In this document: in pieces, positions 35,681 to 44,035 of the stretch
Layout of the letters: each line of letters begins with the position of its first letter
How positions within the stretch are numbered: the stretch's first letter is position 1
Assembly (NCBI GenBank): GCA_949878575.1
Contig: CATLAX010000001.1
Coordinates: 320,220-384,219, forward strand
Length of the DNA stretch: 64,000 nt
Direction of reading: 5' to 3'
Source of the DNA: an uncultured Alphaproteobacteria bacterium
GTDB lineage: Bacteria; Pseudomonadota; Alphaproteobacteria; Rs-D84
The notes under the pieces: generated by a model
The model's input: only the letters and a program-made list of their open reading frames with translations
Told to the model about the DNA's origin: nothing
Databases searched by the model: none
Position numbers and translations under genes: made by a program

Positions 35681-36513
35681 CTGTTTGCCACAATCCCGAC
35701 AAGCTCGCGAACCGCATCCGCCGTAGCCTGGTCGCCGGCCGGGGCGTATTCCACGAATTCAAAACTGTGTGCATCGGCAAATTCACGTGCAAGACGCCGT
35801 GCGGCATACATGCTGATGCCGTTTGGTTCCGGCACCAGAACATCTTTGAAATACTGCGGGTCTATTGCGTCAAAATCAAAAGAAACCACAAACGGGCGTC
35901 CGTCCAGGCGTCTGCGTATTTCCGTAATGGCATCGTCCAGGTCGCCGTCGGTCTGCAGTGCGTCCGCCCCGCGCATGAAAATTCCGTTTTCACGCACAAA
36001 ACTTATTTCTGCCGGCTCGTAAGAGCGGCTGGCCAGATAAAACAGATTTTCCGGACGCAGTGCCGGGAACTTTGACTGCAGTGACAGCCAGCGCGCGTCA
36101 CCTTCGCCCAGGTTGGCGCGGACATTTGTTCCGTGCGGTGCCCCCGATGCCTCCGCCTTTGAACTTTCCGGCGTATGAATATCCAAATGCGCGTCAATGT
36201 ATACCAGGCACAGATCCTCGTCCGGCATTGTATCGGCAACGGCCGCAAAATGGCCAAAGTTTACAGAATGGTCGCCGCCAATAAGAATATGGCGCCCGGC
36301 CGGTGTCGCGGCATATATTTTTTTATGAACTTCAAATGCGTCGCCAAAACGGTCGGCCATGCATACATCCGCCGGAACCGGATCCGCCGTAATCATTGTC
36401 CAGTTCGCCTTTGGAAACATTTCGCGCACGGCCCCCGGCCCCAGGGCGGGCCCGCCTTCCACTATCTTTGCGGTTGCACCGCGTCCGTATTCCACACCTA
36501 TAAAGTTAGTCAC
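35677..36513 (-). CDS. Arginase/agmatinase/formiminoglutamase-family ureohydrolase
   Basis: GGDHSVNFG, DAHLDIHTPESS and SFDFDAIDP metal-binding motifs. Confidence 0.75.
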   Translation of the reverse strand: MTNFIGVEYGRGATAKIVEGGPALGPGAVREMFPKANWTMITADPVPADVCMADRFGDAFEVHKKIYAATPAGRHILIGGDHSVNFGHFAAVADTMPDEDLCLVYIDAHLDIHTPESSKAEASGAPHGTNVRANLGEGDARWLSLQSKFPALRPENLFYLASRSYEPAEISFVRENGIFMRGADALQTDGDLDDAITEIRRRLDGRPFVVSFDFDAIDPQYFKDVLVPEPNGISMYAARRLAREFADAHSFEFVEYAPAGDQATADAVRELVGIVANS

Positions 36514-37510
36514 TGTATGCCTCCACTATGCTTTCGGCGGCGTTTTTTATTTTTGCCAGGCCGGATTCGTATGATGCGCAATCGCGTGCTATTTCAGAAC
36601 GATATGCATCGCGCATGTTTGTCGCCATATAGGCACAGCCGCGTAAATGTTGTACGCAGTAATCATGCCCTGTGGCGAATGTCTGCTGGCCGCGCACACG
36701 GCTTTCCGTGCCGGCCCAGTTGATGTTTAGTGCATTTTCCAAATTTACCCATGAATTGTCACCGGTGTATTTCCCGATTGTATTCATCCAATATTGATTC
36801 ATTTCTTCATCAGACCACGTGTTTGTGCTTTGCAGGCGCAGTATTTTTTGAATCAGCCCATCTATTGCCGGTTGATATTCGGCATCAATCCGGGCCAGCT
36901 TTGCACTGCAGTAACACCTGTTATAGGTGGTGTTTTCCCGGCGGCAATATCCGTTCATACATTCCGTGTAATCCGCCAGACAGCGTGCTGCCGGCAGGCT
37001 TTCCGTTGTGTCCGCTGCGGCCGCGGCGGCGGCCCCCAACGCCGTTTGCGATGTCTGGGATGCATCACCGCGGGCACTGCGTGCGGCCATATTTCCGCGC
37101 ACCGCCGCACGTGGTACCACGCGGCGCGTGCCGGATGATGTCGCCGCCCCGCCATTTTGTGTCGTGCGCAGTCCTGCGCGCGCGGCGGTATTGCCCGCGG
37201 CTACACCGGTTCCGGCGGCGTTTGCACTGCGTGCGGCGTTGCGCGACACAACCCGCCGCGGCGCCGACAACTGTTCCGTGCGCGTAATTACGTTTATCGG
37301 ATTTGAACCCTGGTTTGGCGTAACACCGGGGTTTAAATCAGTGCGCATTTGATTGTTTAGATATGGATACATATAGTTGTAATTGTATGCCGCGTTTGGC
37401 GATGCGGTCGCACTGCGTGCACCGGTGTTGCGCGTGGTCACCGCCGATGCCGGCATGGCCGCGGTTATAAATATGAATACAAAAGCAAAAAGGCATCGCA
37501 CTGACATCAT
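36506..37510 (-). CDS. Secreted Cys-rich hypothetical protein
   Basis: Signal peptide MMSVRCLFAFVFIFITAAMPASA. The supplied 440-aa ORF (36506..37828) is trimmed to this Met because the longer version runs through tRNA-Pro. Confidence 0.45.
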   Translation of the reverse strand: MMSVRCLFAFVFIFITAAMPASAVTTRNTGARSATASPNAAYNYNYMYPYLNNQMRTDLNPGVTPNQGSNPINVITRTEQLSAPRRVVSRNAARSANAAGTGVAAGNTAARAGLRTTQNGGAATSSGTRRVVPRAAVRGNMAARSARGDASQTSQTALGAAAAAAADTTESLPAARCLADYTECMNGYCRRENTTYNRCYCSAKLARIDAEYQPAIDGLIQKILRLQSTNTWSDEEMNQYWMNTIGKYTGDNSWVNLENALNINWAGTESRVRGQQTFATGHDYCVQHLRGCAYMATNMRDAYRSEIARDCASYESGLAKIKNAAESIVEAYSD

Positions 37511-37596
37511 GATGCATTTTAGAAATTTTACGAAAACGAAACAAGCATAAAAATTTGCAATTTTGAAAAAGATTGATATACTTTTGCATTGTATAT

Positions 37597-37673
37597 CGGG
37601 GCGTAGCTCAGTCTGGTAGAGTGCTTGCTTTGGGAGCAAGATGTCGCATGTTCGAATCATGTCGCCCCGACCA
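37597..37673 (+). tRNA. tRNA-Pro (anticodon TGG)
   Basis: Cloverleaf: acceptor CGGGGCG/CGCCCCG, anticodon stem CTTGC/GCAAG, loop TTTGGGA, T-arm GTTCGAATC, 3' CCA encoded. Confidence 0.9.
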
Positions 37674-37686
37674 AGTGGTTTAATAA

Positions 37687-37713
37687 AACGGGTGTCATCG
37701 GCGCCCGTTTTAT
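37687..37713 (+). terminator. Intrinsic terminator after tRNA-Pro
   Basis: aacgggtgtcatcggcgcccgttttatt. Confidence 0.6.
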
Positions 37714-37773
37714 TACATTTCTTATATGATTGAATAAAAAAACGCTGGCCTGTGGTGAAAATGATAATGATAT

Positions 37774-37883
37774 AAAAAAAGCCCGACAAGCGGGCCGATA
37801 GAGGATGTTGTTGCCAACAGAGCCCCACAGAGTATTTCTTTATTGTAGATTGCTTTCCAATTCAGTCCGTAATTTAGAAATAC
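37774..37883 (-). ncRNA. Predicted tracrRNA of the type II-C system
   Basis: The minus strand reads 5'-...CUGAAUUGGAAAGCAAUCUACAAU AAAG AAAUACUCUGUGGGGCUCUGUUGGCAACAACAUCCUCUAUC GGCCCGCUUGUCGGGC UUUUUUU. The 22-nt anti-repeat pairs with 19 contiguous bp (plus wobble) to the crRNA repeat 5' end GUUGUAGAUUGCUUUCCAAAUUGG. A Neisseria-like ACAAUAAAG junction is present, and a terminal GC hairpin plus U7 forms the terminator. Confidence 0.65.
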
Positions 37884-37890
37884 ATTGCGC

Positions 37891-37918
37891 ATTGTAGTTA
37901 TAGGAATTAGAATGTCAA
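37891..37918 (-). promoter_or_regulatory. Sigma70-like promoter for the tracrRNA (TTGACA-N16-TACAAT)
   Basis: On the minus strand, TTGACA lies at 37918..37913 and TACAAT at 37896..37891. The predicted TSS is about 37883. It is divergent from cas9. Confidence 0.6.
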
Positions 37919-37934
37919 GAAAAAGACAATAAAC

Positions 37935-40900
37935 ATGCGGATATTTGGTTTTGATTTGGGAATTGCAAGCATCGGCTGGGCGGTTGTTGACATAGAAAAA
38001 GAAAACAATAACCCAGAGGTGGAACGTGCCACTGTTGGTAAAATACAGCAGTCTGGGGTGCGTATTTTTAGTGTCGCAGAAAACCCAAAGGACGGTTCTT
38101 CATTGGCGGCACCGCGCCGCGAGAAGCGGCGGGTCCGTCGTGCGTTGCGCAGGAAGGCGCTGCGAATGAAAGAAATTCGCGCATTGTTGGAAAATAGCGG
38201 CCTGGGCAACCAAAATATCGTTGTTAATTCTGATGATATTGATGTCTGGGCTTTGCGTGCCGAAGATGCCTTTTGCCGCAAGTTGTCGCCACGTGAACTG
38301 TCGCGTGTACTGGTTCATATGGCCAAACATCGTGGGTATAAGTCAATGCGTAAGTCCGCAGAGGAAAACGATAAAGAAACCGGAAAGGTCCTTGTTTCAA
38401 TCGCGCGAAATCGCGAACGTATGGGCGAGTATAAAACAATGGCCCAAATGATTTATAAGAGCGGCTGCAATGATGCAAAAAAATATCGCAATGGTGATGG
38501 CGTATATGATAATTCAATCCCGCGGGAAGAAATAGAGAGGGAACTGGATTTAATTTTTGACGCTCAGCAAAAATATGGGTTGTTTACGCCAGAATTACTG
38601 GAACAATACAAAAAAATCGCATTTCGTGTGCGGCCGATGCAGTCTGTTGGTAAAATGGTTGGCGGGTGTACGTTAGAGCCGAATTGTTTGCGCGCACCGA
38701 AAGAGGCGCCCACGGCAGAATTATTTGTGGCGCTGACCCGTATAAACAACATGAAAATTGTTATTGATGGTGAAGTTCGCTCTGTAAATGATGAAGAACG
38801 GACGGCCATCCTGGATTTGTTGCGCAAGACGCAAACGGTTAAATATAAAACATTGCATAACAAAATATGGAAGGGGCAAGACGTCGTTTTTCGCGGTGTA
38901 AAAGAAGAAACTCAAGATTTTTATTCCATGGCCGGATGGCATAAATTAAAGAAAATCTTGAATGATGCCGATATGGCGGATATGCGAATGCTTGACCGGA
39001 TTATGAAGGTTGTTGCAACCCAGAAAGATGAAGCGGCAATAGCAAAAGAATTACGACGCAAGAAAGTCCCAGAAAAATATATTGCAAAATTAAAGGAATT
39101 GTCTACGTCCAAATTCATAAATCTGTCTTTGCAGGCCTTGTATAAAATTGTCCCGGAAATGATGCGCGGGCTGACGTATGACAAGGCTTGTGCGGCGGTC
39201 GGCTATGATTTTAAAACCAAAGTATCCGGGGATGTAAAGGTGGATAATGGCTGCATTGCAGAGATTTCAGAATGGACGCGTGTCCCGGTTGTTAATCGTA
39301 CTGTAGCACAGTTTCGCAAGGTGTACAATGCGCTGGTCCGGAAATATGGCGCCCCGGATCAGGTGAATTTAGAGGTTGGACGCGAATTAAAGAATAACTT
39401 TGATGATCGTAAAAAAATAGAACGTCAACAGAATGAAAATCGCGATAAAAATGATAAAGCGCGCGCAGAATATGAGGGGCTGGTCGGGCGCAAGGCAACG
39501 GCCAAAGAAGTCTTAAAATATAAACTGTATCAGGACCAAAACTGCCAATGCATGTATTCTGGCGAGGCGATTGATTTAGCGCATCTGGATGATTATGAGA
39601 TTGATCATATCTTGCCGTATTCGCGGTCGTTGGATAATTCTTATACCAACAAGGTTTTGGTTAAATACACAGAAAATCAGGCAAAAGGCAACAAGACGCC
39701 ATATGAATATCTTGGCAATACCGCACGCTGGGACGCGTTTGTCGGGCGTGTGTCCGCAATCAAGACTGCCTTGGGGGGACGTAAGATTGCAAATCTATTG
39801 AACAAAGATTTTGAAGCAAAAGAAGAGGATTTTCGCGAACGCAATGCAAATGATAACGCGTATGCATCCCGCCATATCCGCCAGATTTTAAGCATCGCTT
39901 TCCCGGAATTGCGTGTTGATGTTCGCGCCGGGGCATTGACACATTATTTGCGCGGGCAATGGGGGCTGGAAAAATCGCGTACGGAATCAGACAGGCACCA
40001 TGCCCAGGATGCGATTGTTGTCGCCTGTGCAACACAGGGGATGGTGCAGTATTTGTCAACAATATCTGGGTTGTTTGAAAATAAACGTAACGAGAAGGAT
40101 AAACCGTGGTGGAATAGGTTAAAACAAAACATTCAAGAACCGTGGGATGGATTTCGTGCCGATGTTTTGCGGTCGTTGGATGAAGTGTTTGTTTCGCGCA
40201 CGGTGCGTGGCAAGGCAACGGGCTCGGCGCATAAGGATACCATCAATTCACCAAAAACTAATAAAGGCAGCATGATTTTGCCGCGTGGACGCGCCGATAA
40301 AGACAATATGTTCCGCATGGATATCTTTAAAAAAGACGGAAAATATGTGGTTGTGCCAATATTTGTGGCAGACACGGTTGACAAAAAACGCCAAGATATA
40401 TTTTACCCACAACCCGCCAAGGCGCATAATCCGGTCGCAGTTGATGATACTTATGAATTTGTTATGACATTGCACAAGGATGATTATATCAAGATCACGA
40501 CAGCAGATGACAAAATATATGAGGGGTATATTGTTCAATGCAATATGCCTGTTGGACAGTTTGTTATAAGAAGTACTGATAATTCCGCGGTATTTTCTGT
40601 CAAAACAGATACCTTTGAACCAGACAATTTTATTGTCATAGATGGTAATTTGTGTAAAGTTAAGGATTATGAATGCGGTAAATTGCGTGCAGTGCGCATG
40701 AATGGTGTTGTTGAGGAAATTGATGCCATGAAGAAGCACATGCGTAGTGGCGAGGTCGCGAAAAAGCAAATACAGACAGTAGATAAATATGAAAAGCGTG
40801 ATGCGCAAAAAACGATAAATGTTGGTACTTTTAAAAACTTGCAAAAATTTCATATTGATGTTTTGGGCGATAGGTCAGAGGTTAAATCTGAACATCGTGC

Positions 40901-41006
40901 GCCGGTCTGCGCTATAAAACCGCAATCAGAAAAAAGAAAAGGAAGGAAGCAACCTAAAAGGAATAAAAATGGGGTGGCGAATCCTTCAACTAACGAAACC
41001 GTGTAA
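37935..41006 (+). CDS. cas9: Cas9, type II-C, compact (1023 aa)
   Basis: RuvC-I is MRIFGFDLGIASIGWAVV (catalytic Asp). An Arg-rich bridge helix (RREKRRVRRALRRKALR) follows. The HNH region is YEIDHILPYSRSLDNSYTNKVLV...N. RuvC-III is HHAQDAIVVACATQG. Confidence 0.95.
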   Translation: MRIFGFDLGIASIGWAVVDIEKENNNPEVERATVGKIQQSGVRIFSVAENPKDGSSLAAPRREKRRVRRALRRKALRMKEIRALLENSGLGNQNIVVNSDDIDVWALRAEDAFCRKLSPRELSRVLVHMAKHRGYKSMRKSAEENDKETGKVLVSIARNRERMGEYKTMAQMIYKSGCNDAKKYRNGDGVYDNSIPREEIERELDLIFDAQQKYGLFTPELLEQYKKIAFRVRPMQSVGKMVGGCTLEPNCLRAPKEAPTAELFVALTRINNMKIVIDGEVRSVNDEERTAILDLLRKTQTVKYKTLHNKIWKGQDVVFRGVKEETQDFYSMAGWHKLKKILNDADMADMRMLDRIMKVVATQKDEAAIAKELRRKKVPEKYIAKLKELSTSKFINLSLQALYKIVPEMMRGLTYDKACAAVGYDFKTKVSGDVKVDNGCIAEISEWTRVPVVNRTVAQFRKVYNALVRKYGAPDQVNLEVGRELKNNFDDRKKIERQQNENRDKNDKARAEYEGLVGRKATAKEVLKYKLYQDQNCQCMYSGEAIDLAHLDDYEIDHILPYSRSLDNSYTNKVLVKYTENQAKGNKTPYEYLGNTARWDAFVGRVSAIKTALGGRKIANLLNKDFEAKEEDFRERNANDNAYASRHIRQILSIAFPELRVDVRAGALTHYLRGQWGLEKSRTESDRHHAQDAIVVACATQGMVQYLSTISGLFENKRNEKDKPWWNRLKQNIQEPWDGFRADVLRSLDEVFVSRTVRGKATGSAHKDTINSPKTNKGSMILPRGRADKDNMFRMDIFKKDGKYVVVPIFVADTVDKKRQDIFYPQPAKAHNPVAVDDTYEFVMTLHKDDYIKITTADDKIYEGYIVQCNMPVGQFVIRSTDNSAVFSVKTDTFEPDNFIVIDGNLCKVKDYECGKLRAVRMNGVVEEIDAMKKHMRSGEVAKKQIQTVDKYEKRDAQKTINVGTFKNLQKFHIDVLGDRSEVKSEHRAPVCAIKPQSEKRKGRKQPKRNKNGVANPSTNETV

Positions 41007-41874
41007 ACTATCGGTAAAACAAAAACAATTATTTTACGAATCAGATGATACCAAAACAACGATTCCGATAGAGGATTTATCGGTCGTTGTTTTGGAAACC
41101 GGCTTTGTGCAACTAACGGGACATGTCTTGTCAGAATTTGCGGCAAACGATGTTGTGCTGCTGACCTGCGATGCATCGCATTTGCCGGCGGGAACCTTTT
41201 TCCCGTTTCACGATAACTCGCGTTATTCGGAAATGGCGCATATTCAAATTTCGGCCAGCGAACCATTAAAAAAGCGTGTCTGGCAATCGGTTGTGCAGCA
41301 AAAGATTCTGAACCAGTCGGCGGTATTGCATGCATTTGGAACAGAAAACGCATTGTCTGAAATTGCAAAACGCGTACAAAGCGGCGATAGTGATAATCGT
41401 GAGGCCCATGCGGCGCAATTATATTGGCGATTGTTGTTTGGTGATTTTACGCGACGTGATGATGCGAACATTATAAATAAAGCACTAAACTATGGATATG
41501 CCATTGTGCGCGGCTGCGTGGCGCGTAATATTGTTGCGTCCGGATTATTGCCATGTTTTGGTATCCATCATGATAATCAGCTGAATCAATTTAATCTGGT
41601 TGATGACATGATGGAACCGCTGCGCCCGTTTGTGGATTATAGTGTGGCAAAGTTGGACTTGTCCGATTGCTCAGACTTAACACCAGAATTAAAAAATAAA
41701 CTAATATCAGTATTATTATGTAACGCAAATGTGGGGGGTGAAGCAATATCGTTGCTTAAGTGTGCAGAAATGATGTCGGCATCACTGTCCAAGGTATTTA
41801 GACAAAAGGATTGTCGTTTATTGGTGTTGCCGGTGTTTGATAATTCTCTGCTGGATATGGAGGATTTTGACTAA
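40969..41874 (+). CDS. cas1: Cas1 integrase
   Basis: 301 aa. MGWRILQLTKPCKLSVKQKQLFYESDDTKTTIPIEDLSVVVLE is a typical type II Cas1 N-terminus. Its start overlaps the cas9 3' end by 38 nt. Confidence 0.93.
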   Translation: MGWRILQLTKPCKLSVKQKQLFYESDDTKTTIPIEDLSVVVLETGFVQLTGHVLSEFAANDVVLLTCDASHLPAGTFFPFHDNSRYSEMAHIQISASEPLKKRVWQSVVQQKILNQSAVLHAFGTENALSEIAKRVQSGDSDNREAHAAQLYWRLLFGDFTRRDDANIINKALNYGYAIVRGCVARNIVASGLLPCFGIHHDNQLNQFNLVDDMMEPLRPFVDYSVAKLDLSDCSDLTPELKNKLISVLLCNANVGGEAISLLKCAEMMSASLSKVFRQKDCRLLVLPVFDNSLLDMEDFD

Positions 41875-42203
41875 TGGCGCAATATGGGGAACGATTTATG
41901 AGAATGATAGTATTTTTTGATTTACCAACACTGACAAAGCAAGACAGAAAACAAGCGTCCAAATTTCGTAATGCCTTGTTAAAGGATGGGTACTATATGA
42001 TGCAACTGTCTGTTTATTCAAGGATTTGTAAGGGTATGGCACAGGTTGAAAAACATGCCGGACGCCTAAAATGCTTGATTCCGCCCAGTGGAAGTGTTAG
42101 ACTGATGACGGTAACAGAAAAACAGTTCGCTGATATGGAAATATTGGTCGGCGAATCGAAAAAACAAGAAAAAATAGGTGCAAAGCAACTTGTTATGTTT
42201 TAG
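41874..42203 (+). CDS. cas2: Cas2
   Basis: MRMIVFFDLPTLTKQDRKQASKFRNALLKDGYYMMQLSVYSRI. The ATG overlaps the cas1 stop. Confidence 0.9.
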   Translation: MAQYGERFMRMIVFFDLPTLTKQDRKQASKFRNALLKDGYYMMQLSVYSRICKGMAQVEKHAGRLKCLIPPSGSVRLMTVTEKQFADMEILVGESKKQEKIGAKQLVMF

Positions 42204-42227
42204 TTTTTCTTTAAAGAATTACAAAAT

Positions 42228-42256
42228 AACCCGCTATATTCAGCGGGTTGTTTTGT
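42228..42256. terminator. Hairpin terminator between cas2 and the array (usable from either strand)
   Basis: aacccgctatattcagcgggtt + gttttgtt. Confidence 0.55.
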
Positions 42257-42260
42257 TGGT

Positions 42261-42956
42261 ATTATATCAAAACCAATTTGGAAAGCAATCTACAACCGTA
42301 TCGTCTTGTTTGGGAACATTGGAAAGATTATATCAAAACCAATTTGGAAAGCAATCTACAACTATGCCTCGTTCTCAATATCGTGACTTTATATTATATC
42401 AAAACCAATTTGGAAAGCAATCTACAACCACATTCATCGTCAAATACGCCAAGACGGTATTATATCAAAACCAATTTGGAAAGCAATCTACAACCGTAAA
42501 TTGTTTGGTACGCGCTTGTTATCTATTATATCAAAACCAATTTGGAAAGCAATCTACAACGTGAAGACCTCTTTTATGACTTTAAACAGTATTATATCAA
42601 AACCAATTTGGAAAGCAATCTACAACAAGAGTGTTGGCGTGAAATTCAGTTGCCTTATTATATCAAAACCAATTTGGAAAGCAATCTACAACGACCGATT
42701 TGACTGGTGGCATCCGGAATTTATTATATCAAAACCAATTTGGAAAGCAATCTACAACCTACCCGATATTCTTAAATGATGACCATCTATTATATCAAAA
42801 CCAATTTGGAAAGCAATCTACAACATTGATTGGCATAAATGCCGTTGCTCGTAAATTATATCAAAACCGATTTGGAAAGCAATCTACAACCGCTTGTTGG
42901 GGCTGTATGTTTCCTGCAATATTATATCAAAACCAATTAGAAAAACAATCTATAGA
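42261..42956 (-). CRISPR. CRISPR array: 11 x 36-bp repeats, 10 x 30-bp unique spacers. It is transcribed on the minus strand.
   Basis: Repeat (plus strand) ATTATATCAAAACCAATTTGGAAAGCAATCTACAAC with an exact 66-bp period from 42261. Repeat 10 has one SNP (CCGATTT). Terminal repeat 11 (42921..42956) is degenerate. The reverse complement GTTGTAGATTGC...TTTTGATATAAT matches the II-C repeat style and carries an extended -10. Confidence 0.95.
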
Positions 42957-43198
42957 GTTGTGGGTTATTATTAAGAGCTATTTTATTGTATAAAAAAATC
43001 GGTTCGGAGTTTGCCGAACCGATTCATCGCCTTCTCATCTCATTTATAATATTACATAATTTTTATGTCTTTTCCAGTATTATTTTTTTTGCCAGTGCTG
43101 TGAAAACAGTTGTTTTATAGTTAAAATTTGTAATAATTATGAAACGATAATAATCCCATATGATTTTTGCCGCCCGGGGCGGTAAAATTATGTAAAAC

Positions 43199-44035
43199 TT
43201 GTCGGAGAGAGAAATGCCAAAAAAGAAAAAACAGACAAATAATGAAATTCCGTCCGCGGTGCCGGCGGATACTGTTGCAAGTGATGCGGCGCGAAAAAAA
43301 CGTCGCCGCATGGCGTACATTGTCGGCATTGTGGCGGCATTATGCGTTGGGGCTGTTGTGTTAAAGCATGTTTTGACATCCGGACCGTTTATGTATGCCG
43401 GAACACTGGAAACCACAAAGGTGACACTGGCGGCGCGTGTTTCGTCCGATATATCCAATGTTTTTGTGTCAGAGGGCGATTACGTTCTGCGCGGCCAGCC
43501 TCTGATGGAGCTTAGCTGTGACACATATAAGATTTTGGCGACACAGATAGATAATGATTATGGCCGCGCCCAGGCGCTGTCTCAGCGCGGGCACATGTCC
43601 CAGGCGGAGTTTGATGTTTTGACCCGCAACAAGCAGGACAATGATTTGAAATTGCAGTGGTGTAATGTAACGGCGCCGATTGACGGCATAATCACCACAA
43701 AGTTTCGTGAGCCTGGCGAGATTGTGGCGCCTGGAACCGCGTTGATATCGCTGGCGAATCCATATGAAATATGGGCGTATTTTTATGTGCCGTATACAAT
43801 GCTGCACAAATTGCGCGTTGGTCAGCAGGTTACGGGAATCCTGCCGGAGGCGGATAACAAAAAATTTCAGGGAAAAATAATCAAAATCAGTGAAGAGGCG
43901 GAGTTTACACCCAAAAACGTGCAAACTCGCGAGGAAAGGACCCGCCTGGTCTATGGTGTAAAGGTTCAGTTTGAAAATTCTGATCTTAGTTTGAAATCCG
44001 GAATGACGATTGAAAGTGCGCTGGTTGATGAATAA
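43199..44035 (+). CDS. HlyD-family periplasmic adaptor (membrane fusion protein)
   Basis: N-terminal TM helix, coiled-coil and beta-barrel/lipoyl-like segments. It is the first gene of the exporter operon. Confidence 0.8.
   Translation: MSEREMPKKKKQTNNEIPSAVPADTVASDAARKKRRRMAYIVGIVAALCVGAVVLKHVLTSGPFMYAGTLETTKVTLAARVSSDISNVFVSEGDYVLRGQPLMELSCDTYKILATQIDNDYGRAQALSQRGHMSQAEFDVLTRNKQDNDLKLQWCNVTAPIDGIITTKFREPGEIVAPGTALISLANPYEIWAYFYVPYTMLHKLRVGQQVTGILPEADNKKFQGKIIKISEEAEFTPKNVQTREERTRLVYGVKVQFENSDLSLKSGMTIESALVDE

What the first reader, a model, noticed from the sequence alone, without database searches (positions are those of the whole stretch)
37774..42956. Complete, compact type II-C CRISPR-Cas locus (tracrRNA, cas9, cas1, cas2, array)
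The sequence shows a 1023-aa Cas9 with RuvC-I (GFDLGIASIGWAV), an Arg-rich bridge helix, HNH (DHILPYSRSLDNSYTNKVLV) and RuvC-III (HHAQDAIVV) all intact. Cas1 and Cas2 follow with overlapping starts. An 11-repeat, 10-spacer array has strictly regular 36/30 spacing. csn2 and cas4 are absent, which places it in subtype II-C. At 1023 aa the protein is shorter than NmeCas9 (1082 aa) and close to CjeCas9 (984 aa). Together with a readily predicted tracrRNA, this makes a candidate small programmable nuclease. Its ortholog identity, PAM and activity are unknown from sequence alone.
Basis: partly seen in the sequence, partly recalled or inferred. Interest (0 to 1): 0.85.

Follow-up and report, generated by a model that had tools for sequence, protein, structure and literature searches.

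The report
Intact type II-C CRISPR-Cas9 locus
This is a real and complete but ordinary Neisseria-type (II-C) CRISPR-Cas9 immune locus from an uncultured gut alphaproteobacterium; its newest spacer matches small single-stranded-DNA phages (Microviridae) found in rodent faeces, so it adds one more compact Cas9 to a well-known family and not a new kind of system.

Summary
Window 37773-42956 carries a tracrRNA gene on the minus strand, cas9 (1023 aa), cas1, cas2, a conserved 57-nt leader and an array of 11 repeats of 36 nt with 10 spacers of 30 nt. There is no csn2 or cas4.

All Cas9 catalytic residues are present (D7, E480, H558, N586, H689, D692). The C-terminal 280 aa fold like the WED/PI domains of CjeCas9, GeoCas9 and Nme1Cas9.

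- crRNAs and tracrRNA are read from the minus strand, antisense to the cas operon.
- Every repeat ends in an extended -10 box (TGATATAAT), as in Neisseria meningitidis. The degenerate terminal repeats keep exactly that half.
- Three spacers match Microviridae from animal faeces. The best two protospacers carry a 3' GAAY flank, which is only a tentative PAM.

The identical 12-kb locus is present in an NCBI MAG (GCA_948990175.1). Cas9 relatives of 76-98% identity occur in other uncultured Alphaproteobacteria, in different genomic neighbourhoods. The locus is therefore not a chimera, and it is mobile.

Nearest solved structure: Nme1Cas9 (E 2e-131 over residues 3-745). Verdict: a new member of a known kind. 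At 1023 aa it is average for II-C. Interest is modest.

The parts
37773..37884 (-). tracrRNA gene, about 112 nt. The 5' end is inferred from the promoter. It contains a 5' leader, the anti-repeat, a conserved hairpin (GGGG..UGUUG-GCAA-CAACA..CCUC) and an intrinsic terminator (stem 37780-37796 plus a T7 run).
   Evidence: Conserved in all 11 related loci. Three base pairs show compensatory changes; 97.5% of cells are paired against 43-67% when partners are slid. Terminator found. A fused sgRNA folds at -49.5 kcal/mol, z = -6.6.
37842..37865 (-). Anti-repeat of the tracrRNA (5'-CUGAAUUGGAAAGCAAUCUACAAU-3' on the minus strand). It pairs with the first 24 nt of the minus-strand repeat transcript: 19 bp, a 1-nt mismatch, then 4 bp.
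   Evidence: Repeat and anti-repeat change together in L001, L007 and L010 (UUAGG/UAGG versus UUGG).
37891..37918 (-). tracrRNA promoter, TTGACA-16 nt-TACAAT. It is divergent from cas9, and its -35 box lies 17 nt from the cas9 ATG.
   Evidence: Best sigma-70 match (11 of 12) in 37500-43300. Conserved in all related loci.
37935..41006 (+). cas9, 1023 aa, type II-C. Catalytic residues: RuvC D7, E480, H689, D692; HNH H558, N586. Arg-rich bridge helix at 61-82. WED/PI domains at about 745-1000. The last ~20 aa form a disordered Lys/Arg-rich tail encoded over the cas1 start.
40969..41874 (+). cas1, 301 aa, type II (NMENI) subfamily.
   Evidence: TIGR03639 295 bits; PADLOC Cas1_II 347 bits.
41874..42203 (+). 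cas2, 109 aa.
   Evidence: TIGR01573 87 bits; PADLOC Cas2_II 150 bits.
42204..42260 (.). Conserved 57-nt leader between cas2 and the array. It holds a hairpin (42228-42249) followed by a T-run on both strands. This hairpin is inferred to terminate the cas operon on the + strand and the crRNA transcripts on the minus strand. The leader is also inferred to be the integration site for new spacers.
   Evidence: Conserved in 8 loci, with a compensatory G-C to A-U change in L004. Minus-strand terminator found. By analogy, the N. meningitidis leader sits next to the last-transcribed repeat (PMC12477760).
42261..42956 (-). CRISPR array of 11 repeats and 10 spacers. In the crRNA sense (minus strand) the repeat reads GTTGTAGATTGCTTTCCAAATTGGTTTTGATATAAT. 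Its last 9 nt, TGATATAAT, form an extended -10 box.
   Evidence: The orientation follows from the tracrRNA strand.
42921..42956 (-). Degenerate terminal repeat, farthest from the cas genes and first in the direction of transcription. It is mutated in the half that pairs with the tracrRNA, but its promoter half (GTTTTGATATAAT) is intact.
   Evidence: The same pattern holds in the terminal repeats of L004, L005, L008, L010 and L024.
42297..42326 (-). Spacer 1, next to the leader and so presumably the newest. It matches a conserved site near the 5' end of the major capsid gene of gut Microviridae at 26-29 of 30 positions.
42693..42722 (-). Spacer 7. It matches the major capsid gene of bajarodmic microviruses (Peromyscus and Neotoma faeces) at 26-29 of 30 positions.
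42429..42458 (-). Spacer 3. A weaker match (26 of 30) to a nonstructural gene of bajarodmic virus 100.

Best explanation
This is a functional, horizontally acquired type II-C CRISPR-Cas9 adaptive immune module built on the Neisseria meningitidis plan.

Shown by sequence:
- cas9-cas1-cas2 form one overlapping operon on the + strand.
- A tracrRNA gene is transcribed divergently from a strong promoter directly next to the cas9 start.
- The array lies downstream of cas2.

Inferred:
- crRNAs are made from the minus strand, antisense to the cas operon. Each starts at an extended -10 promoter (TGATATAAT) in the 3' end of the preceding repeat, so transcription begins a few nucleotides into the spacer and gives guides of about 22-25 nt.
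- The repeat part of each crRNA pairs with the tracrRNA anti-repeat.
- Cas9 loaded with this pair cuts double-stranded DNA that matches the guide and carries a 3' PAM. The PAM may be GAAY directly next to the protospacer, but this is weakly supported.
- Cas1-Cas2 insert new spacers at the conserved leader next to cas2.

The natural targets include gokushovirus-like Microviridae of the rodent gut.
For: Gene content and family scores come, and PADLOC.

Catalytic residues align with Nme1Cas9 D16, H588 and N611, and with the RuvC-II and RuvC-III motifs.

The tracrRNA has a promoter matching 11 of 12 positions, an anti-repeat, hairpins and a terminator, all on the minus strand. It is conserved in 11 loci, with 3 compensatory pairs. 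Repeat and anti-repeat co-vary.

The extended -10 box is conserved as TGATATAAT or TGATACAAT in all related arrays. It is retained in the degenerate terminal repeats, while their tracr-pairing half decays.

The N. meningitidis precedent covers repeat-embedded promoters, a start at the 6th nucleotide of each spacer, and a leader next to the last-transcribed repeat (PMC12477760).

Spacers 1, 7 and 3 hit about 75 Microviridae records, and the leader-proximal spacer matches best. A sister strain (L024) carries a different spacer at the same site.

The locus is 41.7% GC against 50.2% for the rest of the window. The same unit sits in different neighbourhoods in relatives.
Against: No expression or cleavage data exist. 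The repeat-embedded promoter is a motif, not a mapped start site. The cas9 promoter was not located: the gap between the tracrRNA promoter and the ATG is only 17 nt. Seven of the ten spacers have no identifiable target. The PAM rests on two good independent protospacers plus one weak one. In every phage record checked, the spacer 1 protospacer has a mismatch in the PAM-proximal seed, so immunity against those particular phages may be compromised.
Confidence: 0.85

Rival explanations
1. The array is transcribed in the same direction as the cas operon, from a promoter in the leader next to cas2 (as in type II-A). The tracrRNA would then come from the + strand.
For: The leader lies between cas2 and the array, and the degenerate repeat is at the far end. 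This is the usual polarity for leader-driven arrays.
Against: On the + strand the anti-repeat is followed only by the cas9 start, with no hairpins and no terminator. On the minus strand there are an 11-of-12 promoter, conserved hairpins with compensatory changes and a terminator. The leader holds a terminator hairpin, and the scan found no leader-embedded promoter reading into the array. N. meningitidis II-C has the same apparently inverted polarity.
Confidence: 0.04
2. The locus is an inactive relic: it is retained but no longer defends the cell or acquires spacers.
For: A sister strain (L024) has cas2 split into two ORFs and only one spacer. All matched phages carry seed mismatches to spacer 1.
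Against: In the window all three genes are full length with intact catalytic residues. The identical protein is found on at least 30 contigs from many samples. The tracrRNA, the leader and the repeat promoters are under visible constraint. Spacer content differs between strains. The leader-proximal spacer matches present-day phages at 29 of 30 positions.
Confidence: 0.07
3. The locus is an assembly chimera, with a foreign low-GC fragment joined into this contig.
For: GC drops to 0.40-0.45 across the locus, against about 0.50 around it.
Against: An independent NCBI assembly (GCA_948990175.1) is identical over 12 kb, including both junctions. The same upstream genes (Rho, arginase) and downstream genes (HlyD/ABC) flank the locus in L003, L024 and L025-L027, which come from other samples. 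A GC dip is normal for a horizontally acquired defence module.
Confidence: 0.01
4. Cas9 mainly regulates host genes here (scaRNA-like or self-targeting use) and does not serve phage defence.
For: Such roles are known for some type II systems, namely Francisella and an N. meningitidis scaRNA (abstracts listed).
Against: No spacer matches the 64-kb window or the related loci beyond chance. Three spacers match phage genes.
Confidence: 0.03

Closest known systems
Neisseria meningitidis type II-C CRISPR-Cas9 (Nme1Cas9; PDB 6JDQ, 6KC8)
   Same: The operon holds only cas9, cas1 and cas2. Repeats are 36 nt and spacers 30 nt. The repeat starts with GTTGTAG and ends in an extended -10 box (TGnTAnAAT). 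crRNAs are read antisense to the cas operon, with the leader next to the last-transcribed repeat. It is the best sequence match among solved structures (E 2e-131, residues 3-745), and the PI fold is related.
   Different: This Cas9 is 59 aa shorter. WED/PI identity is only about 20% and the sequence alignment there is patchy. The C-terminus adds a Lys/Arg-rich tail that overlaps cas1. The tracrRNA lies upstream of cas9 and is divergent from it. The host is a gut alphaproteobacterium, and the likely PAM is not N4GATT.
Campylobacter jejuni Cas9 (CjeCas9, 984 aa; PDB 5X2G/5X2H)
   Different: The sequence match over the whole protein is much weaker (E 4e-72). CjeCas9 is about 40 aa shorter, and its repeat and tracrRNA sequences are unrelated.
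GeoCas9, ThermoCas9 and HpaCas9 (other structurally solved II-C Cas9s)
   Different: They come from different phyla, and no more than about a quarter of PI residues are identical. Their PAMs cannot be transferred to this enzyme.

Membership tests
Type II CRISPR-Cas | A single large effector, Cas9, with a split RuvC domain and an inserted HNH nuclease domain, and with catalytic residues present | tested here: met
   TIGR01865 668 bits. Pfam HNH_4, RuvC_III and Cas9_RuvC all hit. A PADLOC Cas9 profile covers residues 2-991. D7, E480, H558, N586, H689 and D692 are present and align to Nme1Cas9.
Type II CRISPR-Cas | A tracrRNA gene with an anti-repeat complementary to the CRISPR repeat, followed by 3' hairpins and a terminator | tested here: met
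   Minus strand, 37773-37884. It forms a duplex of 19+4 bp with the repeat. It is conserved in 11 loci with compensatory changes. Expression was not tested. No Rfam family matched.
Type II CRISPR-Cas | The adaptation genes cas1 and cas2 of the type II lineage lie next to cas9 | tested here: met
   TIGR03639 cas1_NMENI 295 bits; PADLOC Cas1_II and Cas2_II.
Subtype II-C | No csn2 (which marks II-A) and no cas4 (which marks II-B) in the locus | tested here: met
   The locus is bounded by tRNA-Pro and the tracrRNA on one side and by the array and then HlyD/ABC genes on the other. Neighbouring ORFs have no cas or PADLOC hits. Relatives have the same three-gene content.
Subtype II-C | Cas9 groups with II-C Cas9s and not with II-A or II-B | tested here: met
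   The top solved relatives include Nme1, Nme2, Hpa, Geo, Thermo and Cje Cas9 (E 1e-131 to 4e-72), all II-C. SauCas9 scores 1e-53 and SpyCas9 1e-13. This is a ranking by similarity only; no formal tree was built.
N. meningitidis-type, processing-independent crRNA biogenesis | Each repeat carries its own promoter (an extended -10 box at its 3' end), and transcription starts inside the spacer | tested here: inconclusive
   The motif TGATATAAT or TGATACAAT is present in every repeat of every related array. It is selectively retained in the degenerate terminal repeats. Transcription start sites cannot be tested with these tools.
Programmable Cas9 nuclease | RNA-guided, PAM-dependent cleavage of double-stranded DNA | not testable with these tools
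   There is only indirect support: intact active sites and phage-matching spacers. The 3' flanks are GAACA[A/T]AG for spacer 1 (GGAC in one of the five records), GAATTTCA for spacer 7 and GTTCTTTG for the weak spacer 3 match. That is too few independent sites to define a PAM.

The most novel reading that the evidence does not exclude
This alphaproteobacterial Cas9 clade may read a short PAM that directly abuts the protospacer (about 5'-GAAY-3' at +1 to +4). Its structurally characterised II-C relatives instead read N4-spaced PAMs. Two of the three matched crRNAs are complementary to the packaged (+) strand, so the system may also act on the incoming single-stranded genome of Microviridae. If both held, this would be a compact enzyme with an unusual PAM register and a natural role against ssDNA phages.
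Probability: 0.15. Interest if true: 0.45.

Novelty: new member of a known kind. Interest (0 to 1): 0.3.

Why it matters
The practical value is modest. It adds a 1023-aa II-C Cas9 with a defined repeat, a defined tracrRNA (and so an sgRNA design) and a first PAM hint, which could be tested as an editing enzyme. Many II-C orthologs of similar or smaller size are already characterised.

Biologically it gives a concrete host link between an uncultured rodent-gut alphaproteobacterium and gokushovirus-like Microviridae, whose hosts are mostly unknown. It also gives a second, phylogenetically distant example of the N. meningitidis arrangement (repeat-embedded promoters and an antisense array). Here the selective conservation of the promoter half of decayed terminal repeats supports that arrangement from sequence alone.

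Tried and rejected
- **Rfam:** nothing matched the tracrRNA, and only sub-threshold hits to CRISPR-DR50 appeared. A whole-window Rfam scan found only two tRNAs.
- **Self-targets:** no spacer matches the window or the fetched loci; all hits were 11-15-nt chance matches.
- **PLSDB plasmids:** only chance-level hits.
- **Arrays of related loci against INPHARED:** L001, L005 and L010 gave nothing at E <= 0.01. A pooled query of 51 related spacers at E <= 5 gave one gapped, low-complexity hit to a Dipodomys microvirus, which I rejected as a protospacer.
- **IMG/VR scans:** 18-mer scans covered spacers 2, 4, 5, 6, 7, 8, 9 and 10. Those that matched anything gave only chance matches of 20-22 of 30 positions, and spacers 4 and 7 matched nothing.
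- **Metagenome scan with the repeat pattern:** one useless contig end.
- **More spacers from strains with the same Cas9:** assemblies break at the array, and only one extra spacer was recovered, in L024.
- **Literature:** a full-text search for the repeat and anti-repeat sequences found no paper.
- **Apparent missing domain:** I considered that the patchy alignment to Nme1Cas9 after residue 745 meant a missing WED domain or a novel C-terminal domain. I rejected this after the AlphaFold model matched the WED/PI of Cje, Geo and Nme Cas9.
- **Flanking direct repeat:** I considered the 20-nt imperfect direct repeat flanking the locus (37723-37742 and 42979-42998) as an insertion scar. It is probably chance. 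It is AT-rich and 17 of 20 identical. It lies outside the unit conserved between genomic contexts, which ends at the tracrRNA terminator and at the terminal repeat.
Full report
**Observation**

The ORF map shows cas9 at 37935-41006 (+, 1023 aa). cas1 follows at 40969-41874 and overlaps cas9 by 38 nt. cas2 follows at 41874-42203 and overlaps cas1 by 1 nt. The repeat finder and TRF give one array at 42261-42956: 11 copies of a 36-nt repeat with a strict 66-nt period and ten 30-nt spacers. The tenth repeat has one substitution and the last repeat is degenerate. There is no other array in the 64-kb window. Curated models score far above their cut-offs: TIGR01865 Cas9 668 bits against 100, TIGR03639 type II Cas1 295 against 120, and TIGR01573 Cas2 87 against 24.5. 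Pfam and PADLOC agree, and one PADLOC Cas9 profile covers residues 2-991.

**Cas9**

The best solved relative is Nme1Cas9 (6JDQ, E 2e-131), aligned over residues 3-745. HpaCas9, GeoCas9, ThermoCas9 and CjeCas9 are among the next hits, and all of these are II-C. SauCas9 and SpyCas9 are far weaker. In that alignment D7, H558 and N586 pair with Nme1 D16, H588 and N611. The RuvC-II (NLE480VGRE) and RuvC-III (H689, D692) motifs are intact.

**tracrRNA**

Reading the minus strand upstream of cas9 gives, in order:
- the best sigma-70 match in the region, TTGACA-16-TACAAT, 11 of 12 positions, at 37918-37891;
- a short leader;
- a 24-nt anti-repeat at 37865-37842;
- a conserved hairpin;
- an intrinsic terminator, with stem 37796-37780 and a T7 run.

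The same element is present in all 11 related loci examined. Across them the two 3' hairpins keep 97.5% of cells paired, against 43-67% when partners are slid. Three pairs change on both sides. All three compensatory changes come from the most distant locus, L011, so this counts as one independent event set. Repeat and anti-repeat also change together in L001, L007 and L010. A fused crRNA-repeat/tracrRNA folds into a 19+4-bp duplex plus the two hairpins at -49.5 kcal/mol, z = -6.6. No Rfam family matches it.

**Orientation and crRNA biogenesis (inferred)**

The tracrRNA is a minus-strand RNA whose anti-repeat has the sense of the + strand repeat. The crRNAs must therefore be minus-strand transcripts, antisense to the cas operon. 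In that sense the repeat reads GTTGTAGATTGCTTTCCAAATTGGTTTTGATATAAT. Its last nine bases are an extended -10 box. The box is TGATATAAT or TGATACAAT in every related array.

This is the arrangement described for N. meningitidis II-C. There, crRNAs start from repeat-embedded promoters at the 6th nucleotide of each spacer, and the acquisition leader sits next to the last-transcribed repeat (PMC12477760).

Two sequence features support the same logic here:
- The degenerate terminal repeat is first in the direction of transcription. In the window and in L004, L005, L008, L010 and L024 it has decayed in the half that pairs with the tracrRNA but keeps the promoter half, ATTATATCAAAAC on the + strand.
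- The 57 nt between cas2 and the array are conserved in eight loci. They hold a hairpin with a T-run on both strands and show a compensatory G-C to A-U change in L004. This fits a combined terminator and leader.

Transcription itself was not tested. The cas9 promoter was not located.

**Targets and PAM**

A BLAST of the array against INPHARED phages hit about 75 Microviridae records from rodent, pig, primate and other faeces.
- Spacer 1 is next to the leader and so presumably the newest. It matches a conserved site near the start of the major capsid gene at 26-29 of 30 positions.
- Spacer 7 matches another capsid site in bajarodmic viruses at 26-29 of 30.
- Spacer 3 matches a nonstructural gene at 26 of 30.

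The 3' flanks in crRNA sense are GAACA[A/T]AG for spacer 1 (one record has GGAC), GAATTTCA for spacer 7 in four records, and GTTCTTTG for spacer 3. GAAY at +1 to +4 is thus a hint only, resting on two good independent sites. No N4-type motif is evident.

Seven other spacers found no target in IMG/VR. The arrays of relatives found nothing usable in INPHARED. No spacer matches the window itself.

**Origin and integrity**

The exact Cas9 sequence is on at least 30 contigs from NCBI, ENA and Logan. One NCBI MAG contig (GCA_948990175.1, CARHSV010000002) is identical to the window over 12 kb, including both junctions and all ten spacers. Other samples show the same flanks: Rho and arginase upstream, HlyD/ABC downstream. 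An assembly chimera is therefore excluded.

The nearest named relatives are MAGs labelled Alphaproteobacteria bacterium. About 17 Cas9 clusters at 76-98% identity form a tight clade. The next relatives drop to 61%, 52% and then 48% or less.

In these relatives the unit from the tracrRNA terminator to the terminal repeat sits in quite different neighbourhoods, often beside restriction-modification, Abi or resolvase genes. In the window it is 41.7% GC against 50.2% for the rest. It behaves as a mobile defence module. A sister strain (L024) has a different single spacer, a split cas2 and an extra island at the 3' end of tRNA-Pro.

**Comparison and verdict**

Every defining feature of type II and of subtype II-C that can be tested by sequence is met. 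The N. meningitidis-like promoter-in-repeat feature is met at the motif level only. The system works like, and is a member of, subtype II-C. It is a new ortholog, about 20% identical to solved Cas9s in the PI region, with a previously unpublished repeat and tracrRNA pair (no paper holds these sequences). Homologues in the database are 945-1089 aa long, so 1023 aa is average and longer than CjeCas9.

A specialist would not be surprised by this locus. The added value lies in the sgRNA design, the tentative PAM and the Microviridae host link.

Noticed in passing
window 42297-42326, 42693-42722, 42429-42458: Three spacers match Microviridae from rodent, pig and primate faeces (Peromfec, Sigmofec and bajarodmic viruses and others). 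This gives a CRISPR-based host link between these gokushovirus-like phages and an uncultured gut alphaproteobacterium, and it suggests the sample is of rodent-gut origin.
   Followed up: yes
window 42297-42326 and 42693-42722, against L012-L015 and L042-L046: The crRNAs of spacers 1 and 7 are complementary to the coding strand of the phage, which in Microviridae is the packaged single strand and the mRNA sense. Spacer 3 has the opposite polarity. With only three cases this may be chance, but it raises the question of single-stranded DNA targeting.
   Followed up: partly
L012, L013, L015, L045, L046 (spacer 1 protospacers): All five phage records examined differ from spacer 1 at position 28, and three of them also at position 29. 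These positions lie in the PAM-proximal seed, while positions 9-27 are almost invariant. This could reflect escape variants or simply codon wobble.
   Followed up: no
window 37773-42956 versus its flanks; L001, L004, L005, L008-L010: The locus is about 8 GC points poorer than its surroundings. In related genomes the same unit (tracrRNA terminator to terminal repeat) lies in different neighbourhoods, next to restriction-modification, Abi, KAP NTPase or resolvase genes. It behaves as a mobile module in defence islands.
   Followed up: partly
L024 1-4232 and 8440-8928: A sister strain with a Cas9 more than 90% identical has cas2 split into 43-aa and 55-aa ORFs and an array collapsed to one, different, spacer. 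It also carries an extra island (KAP NTPase, Eco57I-like methylase/restriction genes) whose boundary falls at the 3' end of tRNA-Pro (window 37667).
   Followed up: partly
L010 9152-9641 and 9943-10236: In a related array a block of four spacers is duplicated in tandem, and one further spacer occurs twice. This points to recombination within the array.
   Followed up: no
window 42996-43025 (minus strand): A strong minus-strand terminator-like hairpin (12 bp followed by a T-run) lies 40 nt upstream of the array in the crRNA direction. No convincing minus-strand gene lies before it. It may insulate the array from read-through.
   Followed up: no
window 37723-37742 and 42979-42998: A 20-nt AT-rich imperfect direct repeat (17 of 20 identical) brackets the whole CRISPR-Cas unit at similar distances on both sides. 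It lies outside the unit conserved between genomic contexts, so it is probably chance and not an insertion scar.
   Followed up: partly
window 37870-37879 and 37828-37837 (minus strand; tracrRNA): The tracrRNA 5' leader (GUAUUUCU) can form an 8-bp helix with the segment just after the anti-repeat (AGAAAUAC). In the free RNA this would enclose the anti-repeat in a hairpin. The leader segment is invariant in all 11 loci; the 3' segment differs only at its last base (C to U in L004 and L011), which keeps a G-U wobble.
   Followed up: no
window 36506-37510 (minus strand): The conserved upstream neighbour is a 333-aa ORF with no Pfam or PADLOC hit. It contains an internal repeated DNA motif (GCACTGCGTGCGG, three copies 150-186 nt apart). 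It accompanies the arginase gene in several related contigs.
   Followed up: no
window 42252-42428: The repeat gives sub-threshold hits (26-28 bits, gathering score 47) to Rfam CRISPR-DR50. The aligned consensus shares GTTGT..ATTGCTTTC..AAATTG with this repeat, which hints at a common ancestry of the repeat families.
   Followed up: no
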